4,925 bases of DNA from a virus (taxonomy: Duplodnaviria > Heunggongvirae > Uroviricota > Caudoviricetes): IMG/VR virus record IMGVR_UViG_3300029471_000068, one strand, 5' to 3'. Below are positions 1 through 4,925 of this stretch, in pieces. The translations under genes and the position numbers were made by a program. Under the pieces are notes generated by a model, which was not told where the DNA came from, searched no databases, and saw only the letters and a program-made list of their open reading frames with translations. Position 1 is the first letter of the stretch. Every line of letters starts with the position of its first letter.

Positions 1-296
1 GGCTGTTGCTTCACACACCTTTCCAGCGCCCGCTCCACACGCAGCACGTTGGAGATCAGCCCTTCCGCTGCCTGTCGTTCCGTAATGGTTTTGCCGGGAA
101 TGACGCCCGATGTATTACCAATGCCGTCGGTCCAGACACCCGCGCTGCACTGATACGGCTGCAGACGACAGCCTTCGTAATCGGCAATCAGTTTCAGCCC
201 CTCCACGGAGGTGTGAAGCTGCTGAAAACCCGGCAGCATGGCAGCAATAGCCAGCACGGTCCCGACAAGGCAGCGTTTAACGATTGATGGATTCAT
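1..296 (-). CDS. Phage endolysin, GH24 lysozyme with N-terminal signal-anchor-release (SAR) domain; 3' end lies beyond the window start (partial)
   Basis: Hand translation of the minus strand from ATG 296..294 gives MNPSIVKRCLVGTVLAIAAMLPGFQQLHTSVEGLKLIADYEGCRLQPYQCSAGVWTDGIGNTSGVIPGKTITERQAAEGLISNVLRVERALERCVKQQP. The Gly/Ala-rich weakly hydrophobic N-terminus and the E-G-C ... C ... D-G-I-G-N-T block closely resemble P1 Lyz-type SAR lysozymes as I recall them. GGAGG lies just upstream of the ATG. The start overlaps the 3' end of the upstream holin gene. Not in the supplied ORF track because it is open at the window edge. Confidence 0.8.
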   Translation of the reverse strand, partial: MNPSIVKRCLVGTVLAIAAMLPGFQQLHTSVEGLKLIADYEGCRLQPYQCSAGVWTDGIGNTSGVIPGKTITERQAAEGLISNVLRVERALERCVKQQ

Positions 297-492
297 AGTC
301 CTCCCGCGAGATCTGCCCGTCGCGCAGAAGCTGGTAGGCTTTGTGTTTGTAGTACCAGTTGATAGCCAGCATCAGCACACCAATCATCAGGCCGCCCAGC
401 GTTGAGGCATCCTTGATGGACAAATCGCCCAGCCAGGCCAGCACGACGGCGATGCAATACGTGATAAAGGCGCTGATTCGCTCAAGCGTCAT
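277..492 (-). CDS. Putative class II holin or pinholin (71 aa, two predicted transmembrane helices, charged C-terminus)
   Basis: ORF 277..492 (-). Two hydrophobic segments (ISAFITYCIAVVLAWLG and LGGLMIGVLMLAINWYY) are followed by a K/R/D/E-rich tail. It sits between tail gene X and the endolysin, which is the holin slot of the P2 lysis cassette. Size and topology resemble the phage 21 S21 pinholin. The call rests on position and topology, not on sequence identity. Confidence 0.6.
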   Translation of the reverse strand: MTLERISAFITYCIAVVLAWLGDLSIKDASTLGGLMIGVLMLAINWYYKHKAYQLLRDGQISREDYESINR

Positions 493-495
493 AAT

Positions 496-699
496 TCAGT
501 CCCATAGCTGGACGGTCTGCACGGTGGTGGTGGTCGGAATGTCCGGCAGCTCCACCTGCAGCCCGTGAGGTAAAAAGGGGCCGTGTTCGGCAAGCCCCGG
601 ATTTGCCTTCAGTACCTGCTCCGTGACACCCTGCGTGCGCCCGTAATGACGCCAGCAAAGCGCGTCCACCGTGTCATACTGATGCGCACGCACTTTCAT
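496..699 (-). CDS. X: P2-type tail protein X (small LysM-like tail/baseplate protein)
   Basis: ORF 496..699 (-), 67 aa: MKVRAHQYDTVDALCWRHYGRTQGVTEQVLKANPGLAEHGPFLPHGLQVELPDIPTT. It matches the recalled P2 gpX pattern (GDTLDAIC-RYYGRT-G-VE-VL-ANPGLAE-G--LPHG--VELPD). Its ATG overlaps the gpL stop as ATGA (699-701). Confidence 0.85.
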   Translation of the reverse strand: MKVRAHQYDTVDALCWRHYGRTQGVTEQVLKANPGLAEHGPFLPHGLQVELPDIPTTTTVQTVQLWD

Positions 700-1163
700 C
701 AGATAAGCTCCACTGTGCAGTGCGGCGCATCCTGCACCCGGCTGATGGCCCAGCGGGCGTCACGCCACAAATCACCGCTTGCTTCCGCCAGTTCCTCGCC
801 CCGCTTCACACCGGACGCCGTGGCGTCATAGTCCTGGTAACGTTCGTTGAGCATGGCGCGTGCCCAGCAGTAAACCGCGTTGAAATAGTGCTGAATGCGC
901 TCACTTTTGCCGTCCAGCTGTTCCGCCGGAACCTCTGCCAGCGAGGCATACCCCAGCATCTGCTGGCGTCTGCGAAACTCATACAGCTCTGCGTTGACCT
1001 CCGAAATTGCCGACAGCGCAACCTGCTTTAAACGCGGCTGCGTCACCGTGCCGTCAGTGCGCATCACGCTGCGAAACTCCGACAGGTCCACATCAGGCCA
1101 GAACGGCGTATTCCTGATGATTTCCGCCTGTTCCGGTGCCTGTTCTGGCGCAACAAACTTCAT
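699..1163 (-). CDS. L: P2-type head completion/stabilisation protein gpL
   Basis: Minus-strand ORF ending NAELYEFRRRQQ...LAEVPAEQLDG...ELWRDARWAISRVQDAPHCTVELI, which matches recalled P2 gpL (NAELYEYREQK...LADVPADDIDG...ELWRDMRWAVARIQGKPRCIVSQI). Start placed at ATG 1163..1161, preceded by AGGAGA with a 7-nt spacer. The ORF track extends to a GTG at 1226 with no obvious SD, so the start is ambiguous by 63 nt. Confidence 0.85.
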   Translation of the reverse strand: MKFVAPEQAPEQAEIIRNTPFWPDVDLSEFRSVMRTDGTVTQPRLKQVALSAISEVNAELYEFRRRQQMLGYASLAEVPAEQLDGKSERIQHYFNAVYCWARAMLNERYQDYDATASGVKRGEELAEASGDLWRDARWAISRVQDAPHCTVELI

Positions 1164-1258
1164 GCTGCTTTCTCCTGAAATAGAGGGCGGTGGACGGGGT
1201 TTTGATGTGGCAGTGCCTTTCGCCACCCCGTGCCGCCCGTGCGCGGGGGCACGTTCTG

Positions 1259-1900
1259 TCAGCGGCTGTCATTGCGCAGTCTGCGCTCCAGCTGCTGTTT
1301 GTCTTTTTTCACGCCACAGCGGGGATCGAGCTGTAACGCATGGTTGAGATGATTAAGGGCGGAAGCCGGGTTGCTTTCACTCAGGACAGCGCCAATCGCT
1401 TTATGCAGACGCGCCCGTGACTGGTCCGGCATATCCAGACCGTCTGNNNNNNNNNNAGCTCCAGCGTCTGCAGCAACAGATCGGCATCAAAGCCGGTGGC
1501 GGCAAGCATTGCGCTCTGCGCCGCGTCTGCCATTTCCTCTGCCAGCACGGTCTGCACGTTGCGGTTACCCAGCGGCATCACCCAGCCATGACGCAGGGCA
1601 TGACGCCCGATCTCCAGCGCCCCGGCATAATCTCCGGCATCAATGCGCCACAGCATCACGTACATCAGCACGTCATCCTGCTGAGCGCCTCCGGCAGCCA
1701 GGACGCCCTCCGCCCAGGCGGCATATTTCGGCAACAGCTCCACCTTGATTTCCGCTTTTTTCACCGTGGACTGAACGCCCTTGAGACGGCGGCGGTCTTC
1801 CGCCAGTTGCAGCAGCATCAGGTCATAGCCCGACGCGTGGCGAACGCTGCCGCCCTCGCGGGCGGCCTGTTCAGCCTGAACGTGCGGGACTCAGGCTCAT
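1259..1900 (-). CDS. M: P2-type terminase small (endonuclease) subunit gpM; reading frame disrupted as given (apparent 1-nt frameshift near 1883-1886 and a 10-nt N-gap at 1447-1456)
   Basis: Three collinear pieces. (a) ATG 1900..1898 with GGAG upstream, 4 nt from the gpN stop, gives MSLSPA (compare P2 M start MTSPAQ as recalled). (b) Frame ending at 1818 and extending upstream without any start codon gives HVQAEQAAREGGSVRHASGYDLMLLQLAEDRRRLKG...GGAQQDDVLMYVMLWRIDAGDYAGALEIGRHALRHG...LLLQTLE. (c) After the gap, DGLDMPDQSRARLHKAIGAVLSESNPASALNHLNHALQLDPRCGVKKDKQQLERRLRNDSR with stop TGA at 1261..1259. Together these align along the recalled P2 gpM sequence. Confidence 0.8.
1447..1456. other. 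Assembly gap (10 N) inside gpM
   Basis: Run of n. gpM continues in a different frame on the far side, so the N count is not the true length. Confidence 0.95.
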
Positions 1901-1903
1901 GGG

Positions 1904-2962
1904 TTACGCTCCGGCTTCTGCTGCAGCGGCGCTGAAATCGCCAATCTGGATGTTTTCCACCAGTGCGGCGCAGCGGTAGTCCTCAACCACATAGGCTTCG
2001 TTAACGGATTCAAAATTTTCAATCCGGTCACGTTTCGGGTTGTCGATAACTGAACGGCGGCGGGTGTCTTCCTGCCAGTAGATGGACAGGTTATCCAGAC
2101 GGGTGATCAGCAGCGCATTCGGCGGGAAGAACGGCGCACGCACGGCCTGCAGGCCACCCATGCGTTTCTGACTGATGATCATATCGGCAGCCAGTTTTTC
2201 ACTGTTTTCCTGCTCTTTGTTGACCAGCGGGAAATACTTGTCAGACAGCAGTTCACGACCGCAAATCACCACCAGATCGTCATCGTCCTGGTAGACCACA
2301 TCGATAAGCTCATTGACGGCATCCATCACTACGGCGTCCAGGTTGGCATATTCGCCACCTTTCCCGACTTTCACCGCGCCCGGAGTGGTTTCACCGCCCG
2401 TGGTGGTGCTGCCCATGACGTGATCCGGTGCATCCTCACGGATTTTCTGCAGCCAGCCTTTGTTAACATCCTGCAGCAGCGGGTTTTCACTACGGTTGGA
2501 GGTTTTCGCACGCTTCACGCCGTTAAAGCCGATCATGATGCGGTCCAGTGCCTGACGTTTCACGATGGCGTCACGGATGCGCACCTGGAAATCCTGAAAC
2601 TTCGCCCACAGGTCCAGCTTCGCGTAGGTCAGCACCGTGTCAAAGTTGGTCTGCTCGCATTTATATTCCACATCGACCATCAGCGTCGGATCGACAGGTT
2701 CACGCTCTTTCGCGGTGGTGTCAGTGGTTCCGGCAATGGTGCTGCCAACACCCAGCCCCAGCAGCTGACCGGACTGCTCAGTCACTGGCGTGACGTTAAT
2801 CAGCGTCAGGAAAGCGGCGGACTGCTGGATCTGGTCTTCCAGCGTCTGCTGCACAGACGGCTCCACGGTGAACTTGCTGGACAGTTCTTCAACTGCCACA
2901 CCGTTCAGACGCGCCAGCTGCTGCAGGTAAGCGTTAAAAGCAAAGCGGGTATTCTTCTTCAT
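1904..2962 (-). CDS. N: P2-type major capsid protein gpN
   Basis: ORF 1904..2962 (-), 352 aa: MKKNTRFAFNAYLQQLARLNGV...KFTVEPSVQQTL...RIRDAIVKRQALDRIMIGFNGVKRAKTS...NPLLQDVNKGWLQK...GKGGEYANLDAVVMDA...VVICGRELLSDKYFPLVNKEQENSEKLAADMIISQKRMG...NLSIYWQ...YVVEDY...GDFS. Near-collinear with recalled P2 gpN (MRQETRFKFNAYL...FTVEPSVTQTL...). ATG 2962 is preceded by GGAG. Confidence 0.95.
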   Translation of the reverse strand: MKKNTRFAFNAYLQQLARLNGVAVEELSSKFTVEPSVQQTLEDQIQQSAAFLTLINVTPVTEQSGQLLGLGVGSTIAGTTDTTAKEREPVDPTLMVDVEYKCEQTNFDTVLTYAKLDLWAKFQDFQVRIRDAIVKRQALDRIMIGFNGVKRAKTSNRSENPLLQDVNKGWLQKIREDAPDHVMGSTTTGGETTPGAVKVGKGGEYANLDAVVMDAVNELIDVVYQDDDDLVVICGRELLSDKYFPLVNKEQENSEKLAADMIISQKRMGGLQAVRAPFFPPNALLITRLDNLSIYWQEDTRRRSVIDNPKRDRIENFESVNEAYVVEDYRCAALVENIQIGDFSAAAAEAGA

Positions 2963-2989
2963 CGGGTTTTGTGCTCCATCAGCAATTGG

Positions 2990-3828
2990 TCAGAGTGTCA
3001 ACGGGGNNNNNNNNNNNNNNNNNNNNNNNNNNNNNNNNNNNNNNNNNNNNNNNNNNNNNNNNNNNNNNNNNNNCACCAGTTCGTTAAAGGCGGTCAGCTG
3101 TGCCTGCAGGGCAGTCTCCAGCTCAGACAGGCGTTCTTCCTGCTCAGACAGGGATTTTTCGGTGCGTGCGCTCAGGTTCTGCTGCTCAGTGGCGACCAGC
3201 TCCACGGCCTTATGCACATCAGAGAACCGGGCGTCATCGGACCGCTCTTTTTTGGTAAACAGCGCCGTGACGCGGGCAAACAGGGACGGTTTGTCGTCCT
3301 GGATTTCTTCCAGTTCGATCACCGTTTCCTCTGCAGCGGTAAAGAGATTGGCAGGATTCTGTTTGCGGTTTGCCAGCGGGTTATGGGCTGCACTGGCGCT
3401 GAATGTCAGCATTTCAGTGCCCAGACTGGCGGGATCATCAGTGGCGGCCAGGCCAACCAGGTAGGCTTTGCCCGTATCAGCAAACTTCGGGCTGACTTCC
3501 ATAGAGGTGAATAATTTCTGGCCTTTTTTCACCAGTTCCACCAGGGACTCCGTTGGCTCAACGTCGGCATACAGCGCCATCTTGCCTGCNNNNNNNNNNN
3601 NNNNNNNNNNNNNNNNNNNNNNNNNNNNNNNNNNNNNNNNNNNNNNNNNNNNNNNNNNNNNNNNNNNNNNNNNAGATAAGACTTGATGTGCTCAAGGTTA
3701 ATCAGCGCGGTGTACACCGTCGGGTTGTAGCTGGCTGCCATCTGTTCCAGCCATTCACGCTGGATTTCGCGTCCGTCGGTGGTGGCACCTTCCACCCCGA
3801 TGCGAAAACGCTTTGCTTTCACTGTCAT
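2990..3828 (-). CDS. O: P2-type capsid scaffolding protein gpO; interrupted by two N-gaps (3007-3073, 3590-3673), exact 3' end uncertain
   Basis: N-terminal piece from ATG 3828: MTVKAKRFRIGVEGATTDGREIQREWLEQMAASYNPTVYTALINLEHIKSY. Central piece: ...[39 protein letters not shown]...HNPL...SDDARFSDVHKAVELVATEQQNLSARTEKSL. Both match recalled P2 gpO (FRIGVEGDT-DGR...[57 protein letters not shown]). The two pieces are in different frames across the 84-N gap. The stop at 2990-2992 lies after the 67-N gap, so its frame is unverified. Confidence 0.85.
3007..3073. other. Assembly gap (67 N) inside the 3' part of gpO
   Basis: Run of n within the gpO coding region. Confidence 0.95.
3590..3673. other. 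Assembly gap (84 N) inside the 5' part of gpO
   Basis: Run of n. The flanking gpO segments are in different frames although 84 is a multiple of 3, so the gap length is an estimate. Confidence 0.95.
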
Positions 3829-3970
3829 GAGCCGTGCTCCGTTAGAAAAAACTTACTGGAGCCTTATGGTTGCGGTGATGGGGGCAGTGAAACAATGCGC
3901 GGTATTTGTACCGGCAACCACACAAACCGCAGGCGGGGAAAGCCTTCATTCAAGGTTGTAGGTTTGTGCC
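3829..3970. promoter_or_regulatory. Divergent late-promoter control region between gpO (minus) and gpP (plus)
   Basis: 142-bp non-coding spacer between two divergently oriented morphogenetic genes, which is where P2 places its O and P late promoters. It contains the TGT-N12-ACA dyad listed separately. A CATAAG -10-like hexamer lies on the minus strand about 3863-3868, and GGAG lies 8 nt upstream of the gpO ATG. Confidence 0.55.
3907..3924. promoter_or_regulatory. TGT-N12-ACA dyad: candidate binding site for an Ogr/Delta-family zinc-finger late activator
   Basis: Sequence TGTACCGGCAACCACACA at 3907-3924 fits exactly the TGT-N12-ACA element described for P2/P4 late promoters, normally centred near -55. 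Its centre (about 3915) is roughly 55-60 bp upstream of a plausible minus-strand start site near 3856-3860 for the O-N-M-L operon. Confidence 0.45.
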
Positions 3971-4399
3971 ATGAACACCACACTGACACCCGCAGATCTC
4001 GATCCCCGTCGGCAGGCCATGCTGCTGTACTTTCAGGGATACCGCGTAGCCCGCATTGCTGAAATGCTGGGCGAGAAAGTTGCAACCGTTCACAGCTGGA
4101 AAAAACGCGACAAGTGGGGTGACTATGGGCCGCTGGATCAGATGCAGCTCACCACCGCCGCACGCTACTGCCAGCTCATCATGAAGGAGCACAAAGAAGG
4201 GAAAGATTTCAAAGAGATTGACCTGCTGGCGCGCCAGTCGGAGCGCCACGCGCGGATCGGCAAGTTTAACAATGGCGGCAACGAAGCCGACTTAAACCCT
4301 AACGTCGCCAACCGCAATAAAGGCCCACGCCGTCAGCCGGAAAAGAATGTTTTCACCGATGAGCAGATTGAGAAGCTGGAAGAAATGGAGGAGATTTAG
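3971..4399 (+). CDS. P: P2-type terminase large (ATPase) subunit gpP, N-terminal 142 codons only; truncated by the junction with foreign sequence
   Basis: ORF 3971..4399 (+): MNTTLTPADLDPRRQAMLLYFQGYRVARIAEMLGEKVATVHSWKKRDKWG...DFKEIDLLARQSERHARIGKFNNGGNEADLNPNVANRNKGPRRQPEKNVFTDEQIEKL. This matches the conserved N-terminus of P2-family terminase ATPase subunits (DPRR-A-LLYW-G; KEIDLL-RQ-ERLARV; GGNEADLNP-ANRNKGPRR-PEKN). Full-length homologues are roughly 590 aa; here a stop follows at 4397-4399 and the downstream DNA is unrelated. Confidence 0.85.
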   Translation: MNTTLTPADLDPRRQAMLLYFQGYRVARIAEMLGEKVATVHSWKKRDKWGDYGPLDQMQLTTAARYCQLIMKEHKEGKDFKEIDLLARQSERHARIGKFNNGGNEADLNPNVANRNKGPRRQPEKNVFTDEQIEKLEEMEEI

Positions 4400-4744
4400 A
4401 TGGGAAGAGAATTGTTGAAGATGGCGGATGGGTTTGCTTTGGTTGCGGAGAGCCTGCGGGAGTTGGCGGGACAGGCTGTGGAAGAAGCAAAGGCGGAGAT
4501 GAAGCAGGAGAGCAAAACAGAGAAAGGCACAGCAGATAAGAACACAGCCAGAGTAAAAGTGGATAAGAAAAAAGAGGAACAGAAGGTGGCTGTGGAGGAT
4601 ATCCGTGTGGTTCTGGCGGAGAAGTCACAGGAGGGAAAAACTAAGGAAATTAAGGAACTGCTGGGAAAATACGGGGTGGCAAAGCTGTCTGCCGTGGAGG
4701 AGAAAGATTATCCGGCGCTGCTTGCGGAAGCGAAGGTGCTGTGA
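4400..4744 (+). CDS. Hypothetical K/E-rich 114-aa protein of foreign (Firmicutes-like) origin; function unknown
   Basis: ORF 4400..4744 (+), preceded by GGAGGAG with a 6-nt spacer. Coding strand is strongly purine-rich and uses AGA (Arg), GGA/GGG (Gly) and TTG (Leu), unlike the rest of the window. I do not recognise the protein. Its stop overlaps the next ATG (TGATG at 4742-4746). Confidence 0.5.
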   Translation: MGRELLKMADGFALVAESLRELAGQAVEEAKAEMKQESKTEKGTADKNTARVKVDKKKEEQKVAVEDIRVVLAEKSQEGKTKEIKELLGKYGVAKLSAVEEKDYPALLAEAKVL

Positions 4745-4925
4745 TGGGGAGACATGCGCTGTTATCTGCTTCTTCCTCCAAGCGGTGGCTGAACTGTACA
4801 CCGTCTGCAAGGCTGGAGGAGCAGTTCACGGGAGAAACCGGGAGCGTATATGCGGAGGAAGGCACTGCCGCCCATGCCCTGGCGGAGCATAAGCTGAAAC
4901 GGCTGTTGAAGCGGCGTTCCAAGCG
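4744..4925 (+). CDS. N-terminus of a putative DUF2800-family PD-(D/E)XK nuclease (phage replication/recombination module); continues beyond the window end (partial)
   Basis: Hand translation from ATG 4744: MGRHALLSASSSKRWLNCTPSARLEEQFTGETGSVYAEEGTAAHALAEHKLKRLLKRRSK. The HALLSASS--RWLNC-PSARL ... AEEGT-AH pattern matches, from memory, the conserved N-terminus of DUF2800 proteins found in Firmicutes phages and ICEs. Open at the window edge, so absent from the ORF track. Confidence 0.5.
   Translation, partial: MGRHALLSASSSKRWLNCTPSARLEEQFTGETGSVYAEEGTAAHALAEHKLKRLLKRRSK

What the first reader, a model, noticed from the sequence alone, without database searches (positions are those of the whole stretch)
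1..492. Lysis cassette appears to be a pinholin plus disulfide-caged SAR endolysin pair
The endolysin has a Gly/Ala-rich N-terminal segment with Cys9, plus Cys43 and Cys50 flanking the catalytic region (YEGC ... YQC ... WTDGIGNT). That arrangement mirrors the P1 Lyz mechanism, where a SAR-domain cysteine releases an inhibitory disulfide on membrane exit. The upstream 71-aa two-TMD protein has the size and topology of the phage 21 pinholin. As I recall, canonical P2 uses a larger holin Y and a soluble lysozyme K, so this would be a module swap at the conserved position after gene X. The 20-nt overlap between the endolysin start and the holin 3' end is also notable.
Basis: partly seen in the sequence, partly recalled or inferred. 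Interest (0 to 1): 0.4.

Follow-up and report, generated by a model that had tools for sequence, protein, structure and literature searches.

The report
P2-like prophage holin plus SAR endolysin
This is the ordinary lysis cassette of a very common P2-like prophage of E. coli and Klebsiella: a small two-helix holin followed by a membrane-tethered, cysteine-regulated lysozyme of the phage P1 type. The same cassette is already annotated, and partly studied, in close relatives.

Summary
A 71-aa two-TMD protein is encoded at 492..277. A lysozyme gene starts at ATG 296 and runs off the left end of the window (98 of 170 codons present). The two genes overlap by 20 nt. Cys9, Cys43 and Cys50 are present.

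[quoted passage not shown] The E41-x8-C50-x5-T56 triad aligns without gaps to P1 E42/C51/T57, and all seven cysteines match those of P1 Lyz. The N-terminal cysteine, Cys43 and the hydrophobic N-terminus co-occur across distant homologs. Cys50 is itself the catalytic-triad residue, so "caged" (the Lyz103 term) is imprecise.

The holin belongs to the HP1 holin family (PF16080), whose prototype was reported experimentally as a pinholin. It is a collinear remote homolog of S21, and the small-xxx-small motif of TMD2 is conserved. It has no dual start, and its TMD1 is more hydrophobic than that of S21. The pinholin reading is therefore likely but unproven.

Relative to P2, Y and K are replaced by unrelated proteins, while LysA, LysB and LysC are retained as divergent homologs.

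The cassette is present at 95% identity or more in 983 of 5426 complete E. coli genomes, and in Fels-2, SopEPhi, KP12 and Midge. This is already known, and interest is low.

The parts
277..492 (-). Holin gene, 71 aa, HP1-family class II (two-TMD) holin and putative pinholin. It has a single start codon; an in-frame TGA lies two codons upstream (498-496, also the stop of gene X).
   Evidence: ORF and sequence. PF16080 36.7 bits, above the gathering cut-off of 28.8; PF04971 23.2 bits, below its cut-off of 26; phrog_20; hhalign against S21, E = 5.9e-5. RefSeq name 'HP1 family phage holin'.
427..477 (-). Holin TMD1 (residues 6-22, ISAFITYCIAVVLAWLG).
   Evidence: mean Kyte-Doolittle hydropathy 2.12 and 41% G/A/S/T/C, against 0.49 and 65% for S21 TMD1; it aligns to S21 TMD1 with a 6-residue deletion.
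349..408 (-). Holin TMD2 (residues 29-48) with the small-xxx-small motif S30/G34/G38 and N45, followed by the basic C-terminal tail (K49 H50 K51 ...).
   Evidence: S30/G34/G38 align with S21 G40/S44/G48, and N45 aligns with N55. S30 95/98, G34 94/98, G38 95/98 and N45 91/98 conserved.
277..296 (-). 20-nt overlap between the 3' end of the holin gene and the 5' end of the endolysin gene. An SD-like GGGAGGA lies at 305-299, inside the holin gene.
   Evidence: sequence; the same overlap in the E. coli relative.
1..296 (-). 5' part (codons 1-98 of 170) of the endolysin gene, cut by the window edge. It encodes a GH24/T4-lysozyme-family muramidase with an N-terminal SAR-like domain.
   Evidence: PF00959. 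P1 Lyz 1XJT is the best PDB match, E = 2e-26 for the full length; best fold match 1XJT, TMq 0.75.
204..272 (-). SAR-like N-terminal domain: the uncharged stretch C9-V31 with hydrophobic core C9-F24, preceded by K7 R8. It contains Cys9 (272-270).
   Evidence: Cys9 is invariant in 97/97 close homologs. Cys9 is conserved in the Yersinia, Erwinia and Midge endolysins (about 63% identity) and sits in the same column as P1 C13 and HP1 C11.
129..176 (-). Catalytic motif E41-G-C43-x6-C50-x5-T56 (EGCRLQPYQCSAGVWT). C50 sits at the catalytic Asp/Cys position. C43 is the presumed disulfide partner.
   Evidence: gap-free alignment to P1 E42/C44/C51/T57. PMC8228626 Table 3 for the P1 triad; covariation across homologs.
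496..699 (-). Context: tail gene X (67 aa), 61% identical to P2 X, immediately upstream of the holin gene.
   Evidence: PF05489, E = 6e-34..

Best explanation
The region encodes the first two genes of the lysis cassette of a P2-like (Peduoviridae) prophage. The genes lie in the late operon after tail gene X. In full-length relatives the order is X, holin, endolysin, LysA-like 4-TMD protein, LysB (i-spanin), LysC (o-spanin), R, S.

Shown here by sequence:
- The endolysin is a T4-lysozyme-fold muramidase whose closest characterised relative is P1 Lyz.
- It has the E-x8-C-x5-T triad, with Cys50 in the catalytic position and Cys43 two residues after the catalytic Glu.
- It has an N-terminal uncharged, hydrophobic segment carrying an invariant Cys9.

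Inferred by analogy with P1 Lyz (Xu et al. 2004, 2005):
1. The protein is exported by Sec.
2. It stays tethered to the inner membrane by its uncleaved SAR domain.
3. It is kept inactive by a Cys43-Cys50 disulfide that blocks the catalytic cysteine.
4. When the membrane is depolarised, the SAR domain leaves the bilayer.
5. Cys9 then attacks the disulfide, giving Cys9-Cys43 and freeing Cys50.

The 71-aa protein is a class II holin with two TMDs, predicted N-in/C-in, and belongs to the HP1 family. It is remotely but collinearly homologous to S21. It most likely acts as a pinholin: it accumulates in the membrane, then suddenly forms small holes that collapse the proton-motive force and so trigger the tethered endolysin. 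It has no dual-start antiholin. Timing control is probably supplied by the downstream LysA-like membrane protein (outside the window), as in P2.
For: Endolysin:
- PF00959.
- P1 Lyz is the best PDB hit by sequence (E = 3e-18 for the fragment, 2e-26 for the full length), with a gap-free alignment of EGC...C...WTDGIGNT.
- P1 Lyz is also the best fold hit, TMq 0.75.
- The triad spacing equals P1 E42/C51/T57 (PMC8228626).
- Seven cysteines (9/43/50/94/120/137/165) match P1 (13/44/51/91/118/150/178) and HP1 Lys.
- C9 is present in 97/97, C43 in 96/97 and C50 in 97/97 close homologs, while neighbouring positions vary.
- Among 45 non-redundant representatives with Cys at position 50, a hydrophobic N-segment occurs in 24/33 with Cys43 and in 0/12 without (Fisher p = 1e-5).
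- 22/24 of those carry a Cys in or next to the hydrophobic segment. R21-type (Asp) proteins with a hydrophobic N-segment carry none, 0/4.
- Start codon at M1: SD GGGAGGA upstream; residue 20 is Thr in 92/97 homologs; SIVKRC is identical in relatives at about 63% identity.

Holin:
- PF16080 above its gathering cut-off.
- hhalign against S21: E = 5.9e-5, 50 columns, 32% identity, with S30/G34/G38 aligned to G40/S44/G48.
- Two hydrophobic segments and a basic C-terminus.

Precedents:
- HP1 Hol and Lys were shown experimentally to behave as a pinholin plus a Sec-dependent SAR endolysin (PMC7312051).
- A 98.5%-identical cassette in KP12 was already read as carrying a P1-like SAR endolysin (PMC9902359).
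- Phage Midge is annotated 'holin class II | SAR endolysin | putative antiholin | i-spanin | o-spanin' at the same position.
Against: - Nothing here is experimental for this protein pair.
- The endolysin N-terminal segment is less Gly/Ala/Ser/Thr-rich (39-43%) than the proven SAR domains (54-62%). Its hydrophobic core is only 13-16 residues, the length of a signal-peptide h-region, although the P1 core is equally short.
- Holin TMD1 is as hydrophobic as a stable TMD (mean KD 2.12, against 0.49 for S21 TMD1) and lacks the G/S/A-rich insert of S21. Spontaneous exit of TMD1, which defines the S21 mechanism, is therefore not evident.
- PF04971 (P21 holin S) scores below its cut-off (23.2 against 26).
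- Pairwise similarity to HP1 Hol is weak (E = 0.02).
- The glycine-zipper positions are not kept in the more distant Yersinia, Erwinia and Midge holins.
- The HP1 paper itself reports an unusual, unresolved topology (PMC7312051).
- SAR endolysins can work with canonical holins (PMC6116005, PMC9025707).
Confidence: 0.62

Rival explanations
1. The endolysin is a P1-type SAR endolysin, but the 71-aa class II holin is a canonical large-hole holin, or some other depolarising holin that does not use the S21 mechanism. It merely depolarises the membrane. It is not a pinholin in the S21 sense, in which TMD1 exits the membrane and heptameric 2-nm holes form.
For: - TMD1 is strongly hydrophobic (mean KD 2.12, 41% small residues), more so than TMD2. 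It lacks the Gly/Ser/Ala-rich stretch of S21 TMD1.
- There is no dual start.
- PF04971 scores below its cut-off.
- SAR endolysins are known to be paired with canonical holins in P1 (LydA) and fOg44 (PMC6116005, PMC9025707).
- The S30/G34/G38 motif is not conserved in distant family members.
Against: - Collinear homology to S21 over 50 columns, including the TMD2 small-residue face.
- The HP1-family prototype did not release beta-galactosidase and killed cells without lysing them (PMC7312051).
- In every relative inspected, this holin type sits next to a SAR-type endolysin and never next to a soluble one.
- At 71 aa with two TMDs, it is the smallest known holin class.
Confidence: 0.25
2. The N-terminal segment of the lysozyme is a cleavable Sec signal peptide, not a SAR anchor. 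The enzyme is then released as a soluble periplasmic protein. It would be controlled only by its disulfide state, or by the proton-motive force through some other route.
For: - The hydrophobic core is only 13-16 residues (C9-L21, or to F24), preceded by K7 R8 and followed by Pro-Gly. This is the classic n-h-c layout.
- AIA|A and IAA|M satisfy the -3/-1 rule.
- In the Erwinia and Midge relatives the uncharged stretch is only 14 residues.
- There is a precedent for a wrongly assigned SAR domain: T4 RI turned out to be cleaved (PMC8385771, title and abstract).
Against: - The candidate AXA sites lie inside the hydrophobic core, not in a polar c-region. The proven uncleaved SAR domains of P1 Lyz and R21 contain the same kind of AIA sites.
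- Cys9 would be discarded by cleavage, yet it is invariant in 97/97 close homologs and in relatives at about 63% identity.
- Across distant homologs an N-terminal Cys co-occurs with Cys43 and Cys50.
- The P1 hydrophobic core is equally short.
Confidence: 0.1
3. The true start of the endolysin is internal. The RefSeq record of Klebsiella phage 4LV2017 starts at GTG codon 14, giving 157 aa. The enzyme would then be cytoplasmic and soluble, and would need a large-hole holin.
For: One public annotation uses the internal start (CDS 2784-3257 of L001).
Against: - PGAP and other records use M1.
- GGGAGGA lies 3 nt upstream of ATG 296.
- Residues 1-13 are conserved at the protein level, including SIVKRC, in relatives at about 63% identity, and they are homologous to the N-termini of P1 and HP1.
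- Met20 is Thr in 92/97 homologs.
Confidence: 0.02

Closest known systems
Same cassette in other Peduoviridae: Klebsiella phages KP12 and 4LV2017, Escherichia phages Cartapus, 500465-1 and Midge, Fels-2, SopEPhi, and P2-like prophages of E. coli
   Same: - 98-100% identical DNA over 1-720 in KP12, 4LV2017 and E. coli prophages.
- The holin is 100% identical in Cartapus and 80% identical in Fels-2 and SopEPhi.
- The gene order is the same: X, holin, endolysin, LysA-like, LysB, LysC.
- Midge is annotated 'holin class II / SAR endolysin / putative antiholin'.
- The KP12 paper noted the P1-like SAR domain (PMC9902359).
   Different: Nothing of substance. In the window the endolysin has T13 and M20 where most relatives have A13 and T20. 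None of these versions appears to have been tested experimentally.
Haemophilus phage HP1 Hol and Lys (experimentally a pinholin plus a SAR endolysin, PMC7312051)
   Same: - HP1 is also a P2-like phage.
- Both holins pass the PF16080 gathering cut-off (36.7 and 84.6 bits).
- Neither holin has a dual start.
- Both endolysins have a Cys in the N-terminal hydrophobic domain plus EGC...C, and seven aligned cysteines.
- In both, the holin and endolysin genes overlap.
   Different: - Pairwise holin similarity is marginal (21% over 52 aa, E = 0.02).
- The endolysins are 33-34% identical.
- The HP1 cassette sits after the tail tube genes, not after X, and lacks a LysA-like gene.
- HP1 Hol TMD1 is less hydrophobic (KD 1.44 against 2.12).
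Phage 21 S21 pinholin and R21 SAR endolysin
   Same: - Both holins are 71 aa with two TMDs and a basic C-terminus.
- They are collinear remote homologs (hhalign E = 5.9e-5, 32% identity). S21 G40/S44/G48 and N55 align with S30/G34/G38 and N45.
- In both, the holin gene sits directly upstream of a SAR endolysin gene of the PF00959 family.
   Different: - Not a Pfam member of the S21 family (23.2 bits against a cut-off of 26).
- No M1/M4 dual start.
- TMD1 is 6 residues shorter and much more hydrophobic.
- R21 is a class II SAR endolysin (E-D-T triad, no SAR cysteine, purely conformational activation). This enzyme is the Cys type.
Phage P1 Lyz (class I SAR endolysin, PDB 1XJT and 1XJU)
   Same: - Best sequence and fold match.
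- E-x8-C-x5-T triad, a Cys two residues after the Glu, a Cys in the N-terminal hydrophobic domain, and all seven cysteines conserved.
- The hydrophobic core has the same length, about 13 residues.
   Different: - Only 37% identity over the full length.
- The SAR segment is less Gly-rich: P1 has GGG and GNGN flanks, whereas here the core is followed by PGFQQ.
- The genetic context differs. P1 lyz is followed by the pinholin gene lydD, and P1 also uses the unlinked canonical holins LydA and LydC (PMC9025707).
Phage P2 Y, K and LysA (canonical holin plus soluble endolysin at the same genome position)
   Same: - Same position after X in the late operon.
- X is 61%, R 53%, L 41% and S 40% identical.
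- LysA-like, LysB and LysC are recognisable but divergent, 26-38% identity.
   Different: - Y is a 93-aa, 3-TMD PF04550 holin.
- K is a 165-aa enzyme with no N-terminal hydrophobic segment and no significant similarity to this endolysin (E = 0.014 over 24 aa).
Lyz103 of Erwinia phage ERA103 ('disulfide caging', Kuty et al. 2010; cited from PMC7912344 and from my own knowledge, since the paper could not be read here)
   Same: It is a SAR endolysin activated by a thiol in the SAR domain.
   Different: In Lyz103 the inhibitory disulfide flanks the catalytic Glu, and the enzyme has no catalytic Cys. Here Cys50 occupies the catalytic Asp/Cys position, as in P1. The P1-type mechanism, not caging, is therefore the appropriate model.

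Membership tests
Class I (P1 Lyz-type) SAR endolysin | T4-lysozyme/GH24 fold (Pfam PF00959) | tested here: met
   E = 4.5e-14 for the fragment and 4.4e-40 for the full-length relative; best PDB fold match 1XJT, TMq 0.75.
Class I (P1 Lyz-type) SAR endolysin | Catalytic triad Glu-x8-Cys-x5-Thr, with Cys in place of Asp | tested here: met
   E41, C50 and T56 align without gaps to P1 E42/C51/T57. The P1 triad is taken from PMC8228626 Table 3.
Class I (P1 Lyz-type) SAR endolysin | Second Cys near the catalytic Glu that can form the inhibitory disulfide with the catalytic Cys (P1 Cys44) | tested here: met
   C43 aligns with P1 C44. It is present in 96/97 close homologs. The role of this residue in P1 is from Xu et al. 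2005 (my knowledge).
Class I (P1 Lyz-type) SAR endolysin | N-terminal uncharged, weakly hydrophobic signal-anchor domain preceded by basic residues | tested here: met
   K7 and R8, then a 23-residue uncharged stretch C9-V31 with a core of 13-16 residues. The lengths are comparable to P1, HP1 and R21 (20-24 residues). The small-residue content is lower, 39-43% against 54-62%.
Class I (P1 Lyz-type) SAR endolysin | Cysteine within the SAR domain (P1 Cys13) | tested here: met
   Cys9 is present in 97/97 close homologs. It falls in the same alignment column as P1 C13 and HP1 C11. It co-occurs with Cys43 and a hydrophobic N-terminus in 22/24 diverse representatives.
Class I (P1 Lyz-type) SAR endolysin | Sec-dependent export without signal-peptidase cleavage, with membrane release on depolarisation | not testable with these tools
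   Only a crude -3/-1 rule scan was possible. No SignalP or TMHMM was available. This needs immunoblots, fractionation, and azide or CCCP treatment.
Class I (P1 Lyz-type) SAR endolysin | Thiol-disulfide isomerisation (Cys43-Cys50 to Cys9-Cys43) on activation | not testable with these tools
   Needs Cys-to-Ser mutants and non-reducing gels or structures. The AF2 model has pLDDT below 50 in exactly this region (residues 41-65).
Class II (R21-type) SAR endolysin | Canonical Glu-Asp-Thr triad and no Cys in the SAR domain | tested here: not met
   Position 50 is Cys, and the SAR domain has Cys9. The class definition is as quoted in bioRxiv 10.64898/2026.09.09.750462.
Lyz103-type 'disulfide-caged' SAR endolysin | Inhibitory disulfide between cysteines flanking the catalytic Glu, with no catalytic Cys | tested here: not met
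   There is no Cys N-terminal of E41 within the catalytic motif, and Cys50 sits at the catalytic position. The definition is from Kuty et al. 2010 (my knowledge; the paper was not held).
HP1 holin family (Pfam PF16080; TCDB 1.E.7 as cited in PMC7312051) | Score above the Pfam gathering cut-off | tested here: met
   36.7 bits against 28.8. HP1 Hol itself scores 84.6 bits. RefSeq names the identical protein 'HP1 family phage holin'.
P21 holin S family (Pfam PF04971) | Score above the Pfam gathering cut-off | tested here: not met
   23.2 bits against a cut-off of 26, E = 7e-5. Remote homology is supported by hhalign, E = 5.9e-5. It is a relative but not a member.
Pinholin (functional class) | Two TMDs, N-in/C-in, small size, basic cytoplasmic C-terminus | tested here: met
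   Hydropathy shows TMD1 at 6-22 and TMD2 at 29-48, followed by the KHK...R tail. Orientation is inferred from the positive-inside rule only.
Pinholin (functional class) | TMD1 is a SAR domain (weakly hydrophobic, rich in Gly/Ala/Ser/Thr) that exits the bilayer | tested here: inconclusive
   Mean KD is 2.12 with 41% small residues, against 0.49 and 65% in S21 and 1.44 and 47% in HP1 Hol. However, proven endolysin SAR domains also reach KD 2.2-2.3, so hydropathy alone does not discriminate.
Pinholin (functional class) | Small-xxx-small helix-packing face in TMD2 (S21 G40/S44/G48) | tested here: met
   S30/G34/G38 align to it and are at least 95% conserved in close homologs. They are not conserved in the distant Yersinia, Erwinia and Midge holins.
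Pinholin (functional class) | Gene adjacent to a SAR endolysin gene | tested here: met
   PMC9025707 states that this is the typical arrangement.
Pinholin (functional class) | Holes too small for a folded endolysin: cannot support lysis with a cytoplasmic endolysin | not testable with these tools
   This is the operational test used for S21, LydD and HP1 Hol (PMC9025707, PMC7312051). It needs genetics.
P2 Y-type holin (Pfam PF04550) | Match to PF04550; three TMDs | tested here: not met
   The window holin has no PF04550 hit. P2 Y scores 143.6 bits.

The most novel reading that the evidence does not exclude
This widespread enterobacterial branch of the HP1 holin family may be a pinholin that works differently from S21. 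Its TMD1 is strongly hydrophobic and would stay in the membrane, and it has no dual-start antiholin. Timing, or even release of the SAR endolysin, would instead be controlled by the conserved downstream 4-TMD LysA-like protein (DNZ54_00345 family), acting as a dedicated antiholin or as a Mu-gp25-like 'releasin'.
Probability: 0.12. Interest if true: 0.4.

Novelty: already known. Interest (0 to 1): 0.1.

Why it matters
It matters little as a discovery. The exact DNA is present in about 18% of complete E. coli genomes and is already annotated as 'HP1 family phage holin' plus 'lysozyme'. Curated phage records call the homologous pair 'holin class II' plus 'SAR endolysin'. A 98.5%-identical Klebsiella phage cassette has been discussed in print, and the family prototype (HP1) has been tested experimentally.

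Its modest value is threefold:
- It is a clean, abundant example of a class I (P1-type, cysteine-switched) SAR endolysin outside P1.
- It corrects misannotations, namely truncated starts that remove the SAR cysteine and LysA homologs labelled 'endolysin'.
- This enterobacterial holin, with its hydrophobic TMD1 and no dual start, would be a convenient E. coli-native system for testing whether all class II holins are pinholins.

Tried and rejected
- Direct BLASTP of the holin against S21 found nothing (E > 100), and against HP1 Hol only E = 0.02. Profile methods were needed.
- NCBIfam has no model hit for the holin.
- A summed Hessa-scale dG and the Kyte-Doolittle mean were tried as ways to separate SAR domains from stable TMDs. 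They do not separate them: proven SAR domains of P1, R21 and HP1 score as hydrophobic as P2 Y TMD1. They are therefore used only descriptively.
- A full MAFFT L-INS-i alignment of the 150 representatives timed out. It was replaced by a motif-anchored analysis.
- The first version of that analysis missed cysteines lying just outside the best 15-mer. This was corrected.
- Kuty et al. 2010 and Sun et al. 2009 could not be read. Statements about Lyz103, and details of the P1 disulfide exchange, rest on my own knowledge plus secondary citations.
- The AF2 model is only of medium quality (mean pLDDT 73.7, from a shallow alignment of close homologs). Its low confidence in residues 41-65 is not interpreted as evidence of bistability.
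- A start at Met20 was considered and rejected, because that residue is Thr in 92/97 homologs.
- A lipoprotein signal was considered and rejected, because there is no lipobox before Cys9 (the preceding residues are V-K-R).
Full report
**1. What is in the window.**

All genes relevant to the finding are on the minus strand. Reading that strand, the order is:

- Scaffold O and capsid N (2962..1904).
- Terminase small subunit M and head completion L (1226..699).
- Tail gene X (699..496; PF05489, E = 6e-34).
- A 71-aa ORF (492..277).
- An ORF starting at ATG 296, which runs off the left edge after 98 codons.

The terminase ATPase gene P starts divergently at 3971 on the plus strand.

The 71-aa ORF and the lysozyme ORF overlap by 20 nt (296..277). 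An SD-like GGGAGGA sits at 305-299. The strand is minus, and the endolysin is truncated by the window. The full-length protein in relatives is 170 aa.

**2. Origin and abundance.**

Bases 1-4386 match P2-like prophages at 95-99% identity in 1199 of 5426 complete E. coli genomes. Bases 1-492 alone match in 983 genomes, two of them at 100%, where the genes are annotated 'lysozyme | HP1 family phage holin'.

Among isolated phages, the best matches (98-98.5% over 1-720) are Klebsiella phages KP12 and 4LV2017 and Escherichia phage 500465-1. Fels-2, SopEPhi and other Salmonella and Yersinia P2-like phages fall in the 80-90% band. The holin protein is 100% identical in Escherichia phage Cartapus and 80% identical in Fels-2 and SopEPhi.

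In full-length relatives the cassette reads X, holin, lysozyme, a 125-aa protein (NCBIfam DNZ54_00345 family), LysB, LysC, R, S.

**3. The endolysin.**

*Homology.* The fragment hits PF00959. Its best match among solved structures is P1 Lyz, PDB 1XJT and 1XJU. E is 3e-18 for the fragment and 2e-26 for the full-length relative. EGCRLQPYQCSAGVWTDGIGNT aligns without gaps to P1 EGCRRDPYMCPAGVWTDGIGNT. An AF2 model of a full-length homolog (mean pLDDT 73.7) also finds 1XJT as the best fold match, with TMq 0.75.

*Catalytic triad.* The family triad is Glu-x8-(Asp/Cys)-x5-Thr. P1 uses Glu42/Cys51/Thr57 (PMC8228626, Table 3). Here the triad is E41/C50/T56. Cys50 is therefore itself a catalytic-triad residue, and Cys43 corresponds to P1 Cys44.

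*Cysteines.* All seven cysteines of the full-length protein (9, 43, 50, 94, 120, 137, 165) correspond to the seven of P1 Lyz (13, 44, 51, 91, 118, 150, 178) and of HP1 Lys.

*N-terminus.* It reads MNPSIVKR, followed by a 23-residue uncharged stretch CLVGTVLAIAAMLPGFQQLHTSV. The length is comparable to the SAR domains of P1 (24), R21 (24) and HP1 Lys (20). P2 K has nothing of the kind.

*Close homologs.* In 97 close homologs, C9 (97/97), C43 (96/97) and C50 (97/97) are fixed, while neighbouring residues vary roughly 50:50.

*Distant homologs.* I searched the 1.84-billion-protein representative library and anchored on the catalytic motif.

| Set | Result |
|---|---|
| Non-redundant representatives with Cys at position 50 | 45 |
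| Of these, with Cys43 | 33 |
| Hydrophobic N-terminal segment, with Cys43 | 24 of 33 |
| Hydrophobic N-terminal segment, without Cys43 | 0 of 12 (Fisher p = 1e-5) |
| Of those 24, with a cysteine in or next to the segment | 22 of 24 |
| Asp-type (R21-like) proteins with a hydrophobic N-terminus that have such a cysteine | 0 of 4 |

The three elements of the P1 switch thus travel together. This is what selection for a thiol-disulfide switch predicts. It also argues that the N-terminus is retained rather than cleaved.

*Mechanism.* By analogy with P1 Lyz, I infer the following: Sec export, an uncleaved membrane tether, an inhibitory Cys43-Cys50 disulfide, and, after depolarisation, attack by Cys9 to free Cys50. 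This mechanism comes from Xu et al. 2004 and 2005 (my knowledge, as summarised in PMC6116005, PMC9025707 and bioRxiv 10.64898/2026.09.09.750462). It is inferred here, not shown. 'Disulfide caging' is the Lyz103 variant, in which the cysteines flank the Glu and there is no catalytic Cys. It does not fit.

**4. The start codon and the signal-peptide rival.**

One RefSeq phage record (4LV2017) starts the gene at GTG codon 14. Three observations argue against this:

- GGGAGGA precedes ATG 296.
- Residues 1-13, including SIVKRC, are identical in the Yersinia, Erwinia and Midge endolysins, which are only about 63% identical overall.
- Met20 is Thr in 92/97 homologs.

A cleavable signal peptide cannot be excluded with the tools available. 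The hydrophobic core is only 13-16 residues, and AIA|A fits the -3/-1 rule. However, these sites lie inside the core, and the proven uncleaved SAR domains of P1 and R21 contain the same kind of sites. The P1 core is equally short. The case of T4 RI is a reminder that SAR assignments can be wrong (PMC8385771).

**5. The holin.**

*Family.* The 71-aa protein passes the gathering cut-off of PF16080, 'Bacteriophage holin family HP1' (36.7 against 28.8 bits). It falls just short for PF04971, 'P21 holin S' (23.2 against 26 bits, E = 7e-5). It hits phrog_20 (holin) at E = 1.9e-26.

*Topology.* Hydropathy gives two TMDs (6-22 and 29-48) and a basic C-terminal tail.

*Relationship to S21.* A profile of 98 family members aligns to S21 over 50 columns (32% identity, E = 5.9e-5) in a collinear way. 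ERIS..ITY aligns with DKIS..IAY, LAWLGDLS with LQWLDQVS, and LGGLMIGVLMLAINWYYK with LGSLVLGFLTYLTNLYFK. S30/G34/G38 fall on the S21 G40/S44/G48 face, and N45 falls on N55. These positions are at least 91% conserved in close homologs.

*Precedent.* The family prototype, HP1 Hol, was reported to kill E. coli without lysis or beta-galactosidase leakage. It was also required for phage release alongside a Sec-dependent SAR endolysin, and was therefore called a pinholin (PMC7312051).

*Evidence against a simple S21-like mechanism:*

- TMD1 (ISAFITYCIAVVLAWLG) lacks the six-residue Gly/Ser/Ala-rich insert of S21.
- TMD1 is much more hydrophobic, with mean KD 2.12 against 0.49 and small residues at 41% against 65%.
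- There is no dual start. An in-frame TGA lies two codons upstream, and 96/97 homologs have a single N-terminal Met.
- The small-residue face is not kept in distant family members.
- The HP1 study left the topology unresolved.
- SAR endolysins can also be triggered by canonical holins (P1 LydA, fOg44; PMC6116005, PMC9025707).

I therefore rate 'pinholin' as likely, about 0.6-0.65, and not established.

**6. Comparison with P2.**

P2 carries X, Y, K, lysA, lysB, lysC, R, S at this position.

| Protein | Comparison with P2 |
|---|---|
| X | 61% identical |
| R | 53% identical |
| L | 41% identical |
| S | 40% identical |
| LysC | 38% identical |
| LysB | 27-38% identical |
| 125-aa protein | Recognisable LysA homolog (about 26%; conserved MKK..YPQ..GW..T..YL) |
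| Y | 93 aa, PF04550, three hydrophobic segments; not significantly similar to the holin here |
| K | 165 aa, no N-terminal TMD; not significantly similar to the endolysin here |

It is a long-standing alternative shared by a whole clade, not a local novelty. Phage Midge, annotated by a phage-lysis group, reads 'baseplate protein X | holin class II | SAR endolysin (similar to P1 lysozyme) | putative antiholin (P2 LysA) | i-spanin | o-spanin'. The KP12 paper had already pointed out the conserved P1-like SAR domain in the P2-like cassette of a phage that is 98.5% identical here (PMC9902359).

The 20-nt overlap is one point on a range. It is 17 nt in the Yersinia, Erwinia and Midge relatives, 8 nt in HP1, and 1 nt in P2 and phage 21. 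This is ordinary translational coupling.

**7. Verdict.**

The 'caged' wording needs correcting.
- The pinholin reading is plausible but unproven.
- The module swap is correct but not new.
- The feature is already known and annotated. Interest is low (0.1).
- The only mildly open point is mechanistic. It is unclear whether this enterobacterial HP1-family holin, with a hydrophobic TMD1 and no dual start, works like S21, and what the conserved LysA-like protein does.

**8. Unrelated observations.**

The last 540 bases of the window (from about 4387) are not part of the prophage. The terminase gene is cut after about 139 codons. It is followed by an ORF (4400-4744, phrog_408) whose DNA resembles human-gut and Ruminococcus phages at 69-71% identity and has no E. 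coli match. This looks like a chimeric join. Three runs of N interrupt M and O.

Noticed in passing
window 4387-4925: The right end of the window is unrelated to the P2-like prophage. Matches to E. coli prophages stop at 4386. The terminase ATPase ORF (3971-4399) ends after 142 aa instead of about 590. The next ORF (4400-4744, 114 aa, phrog_408, unknown function) resembles human-gut and Ruminococcus phage DNA at 69-71% identity and has no E. coli match. This looks like a chimeric or mis-joined sequence.
   Followed up: partly
window 1447-1456, 3007-3073, 3590-3673: Three runs of N (10, 67 and 84 bases) interrupt the terminase small subunit (M) gene and the scaffold (O) gene. They appear to be masked or unresolved stretches.
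   Followed up: no
L001 (NC_047818.1) 2784-3257 and 2405-2782; L003 (P2) 1710-2135: Public annotations are inconsistent. Phage 4LV2017 starts the endolysin at GTG codon 14, which removes Cys9 and half of the SAR domain. The 4-TMD LysA and LysA-like proteins are labelled 'endolysin' in RefSeq phage records, including P2 itself.
   Followed up: partly
L002 2405-2782 (just outside the window's left end in the prophage): A conserved 125-aa protein with about four hydrophobic segments (NCBIfam NF038378, DNZ54_00345 family, 121.8 bits) follows the endolysin. It aligns with P2 LysA and with the Midge 'putative antiholin'. It is the likely timing regulator for a holin that has no dual start.
   Followed up: partly
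AF2 model m3437c46a780b of P0008 (residues 1-13 and 41-65, corresponding to window 102-176 and 258-296): AlphaFold confidence is below 50 exactly over the catalytic E41-T56 loop and the extreme N-terminus, while the C-terminal lobe is above 85. This is the region that differs between the active and inactive P1 Lyz crystal forms. However, the alignment was shallow, so the result may be technical.
   Followed up: no
Representative homologs P0305, P0308, P0333, P0338 and others: 12 of 45 non-redundant homologs have the catalytic Cys at the Asp position but lack both Cys43 and a hydrophobic N-terminus. These would be apparently soluble, or differently fused, catalytic-Cys lysozymes. Several carry long N-terminal extensions.
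   Followed up: no
window 699-1226 (-): The mechanical ORF for head-completion gene L begins at GTG 1226 (175 aa). Relatives annotate a 154-aa product, and the Pfam GPL domain starts at residue 37. The real start is probably downstream of 1226.
   Followed up: no
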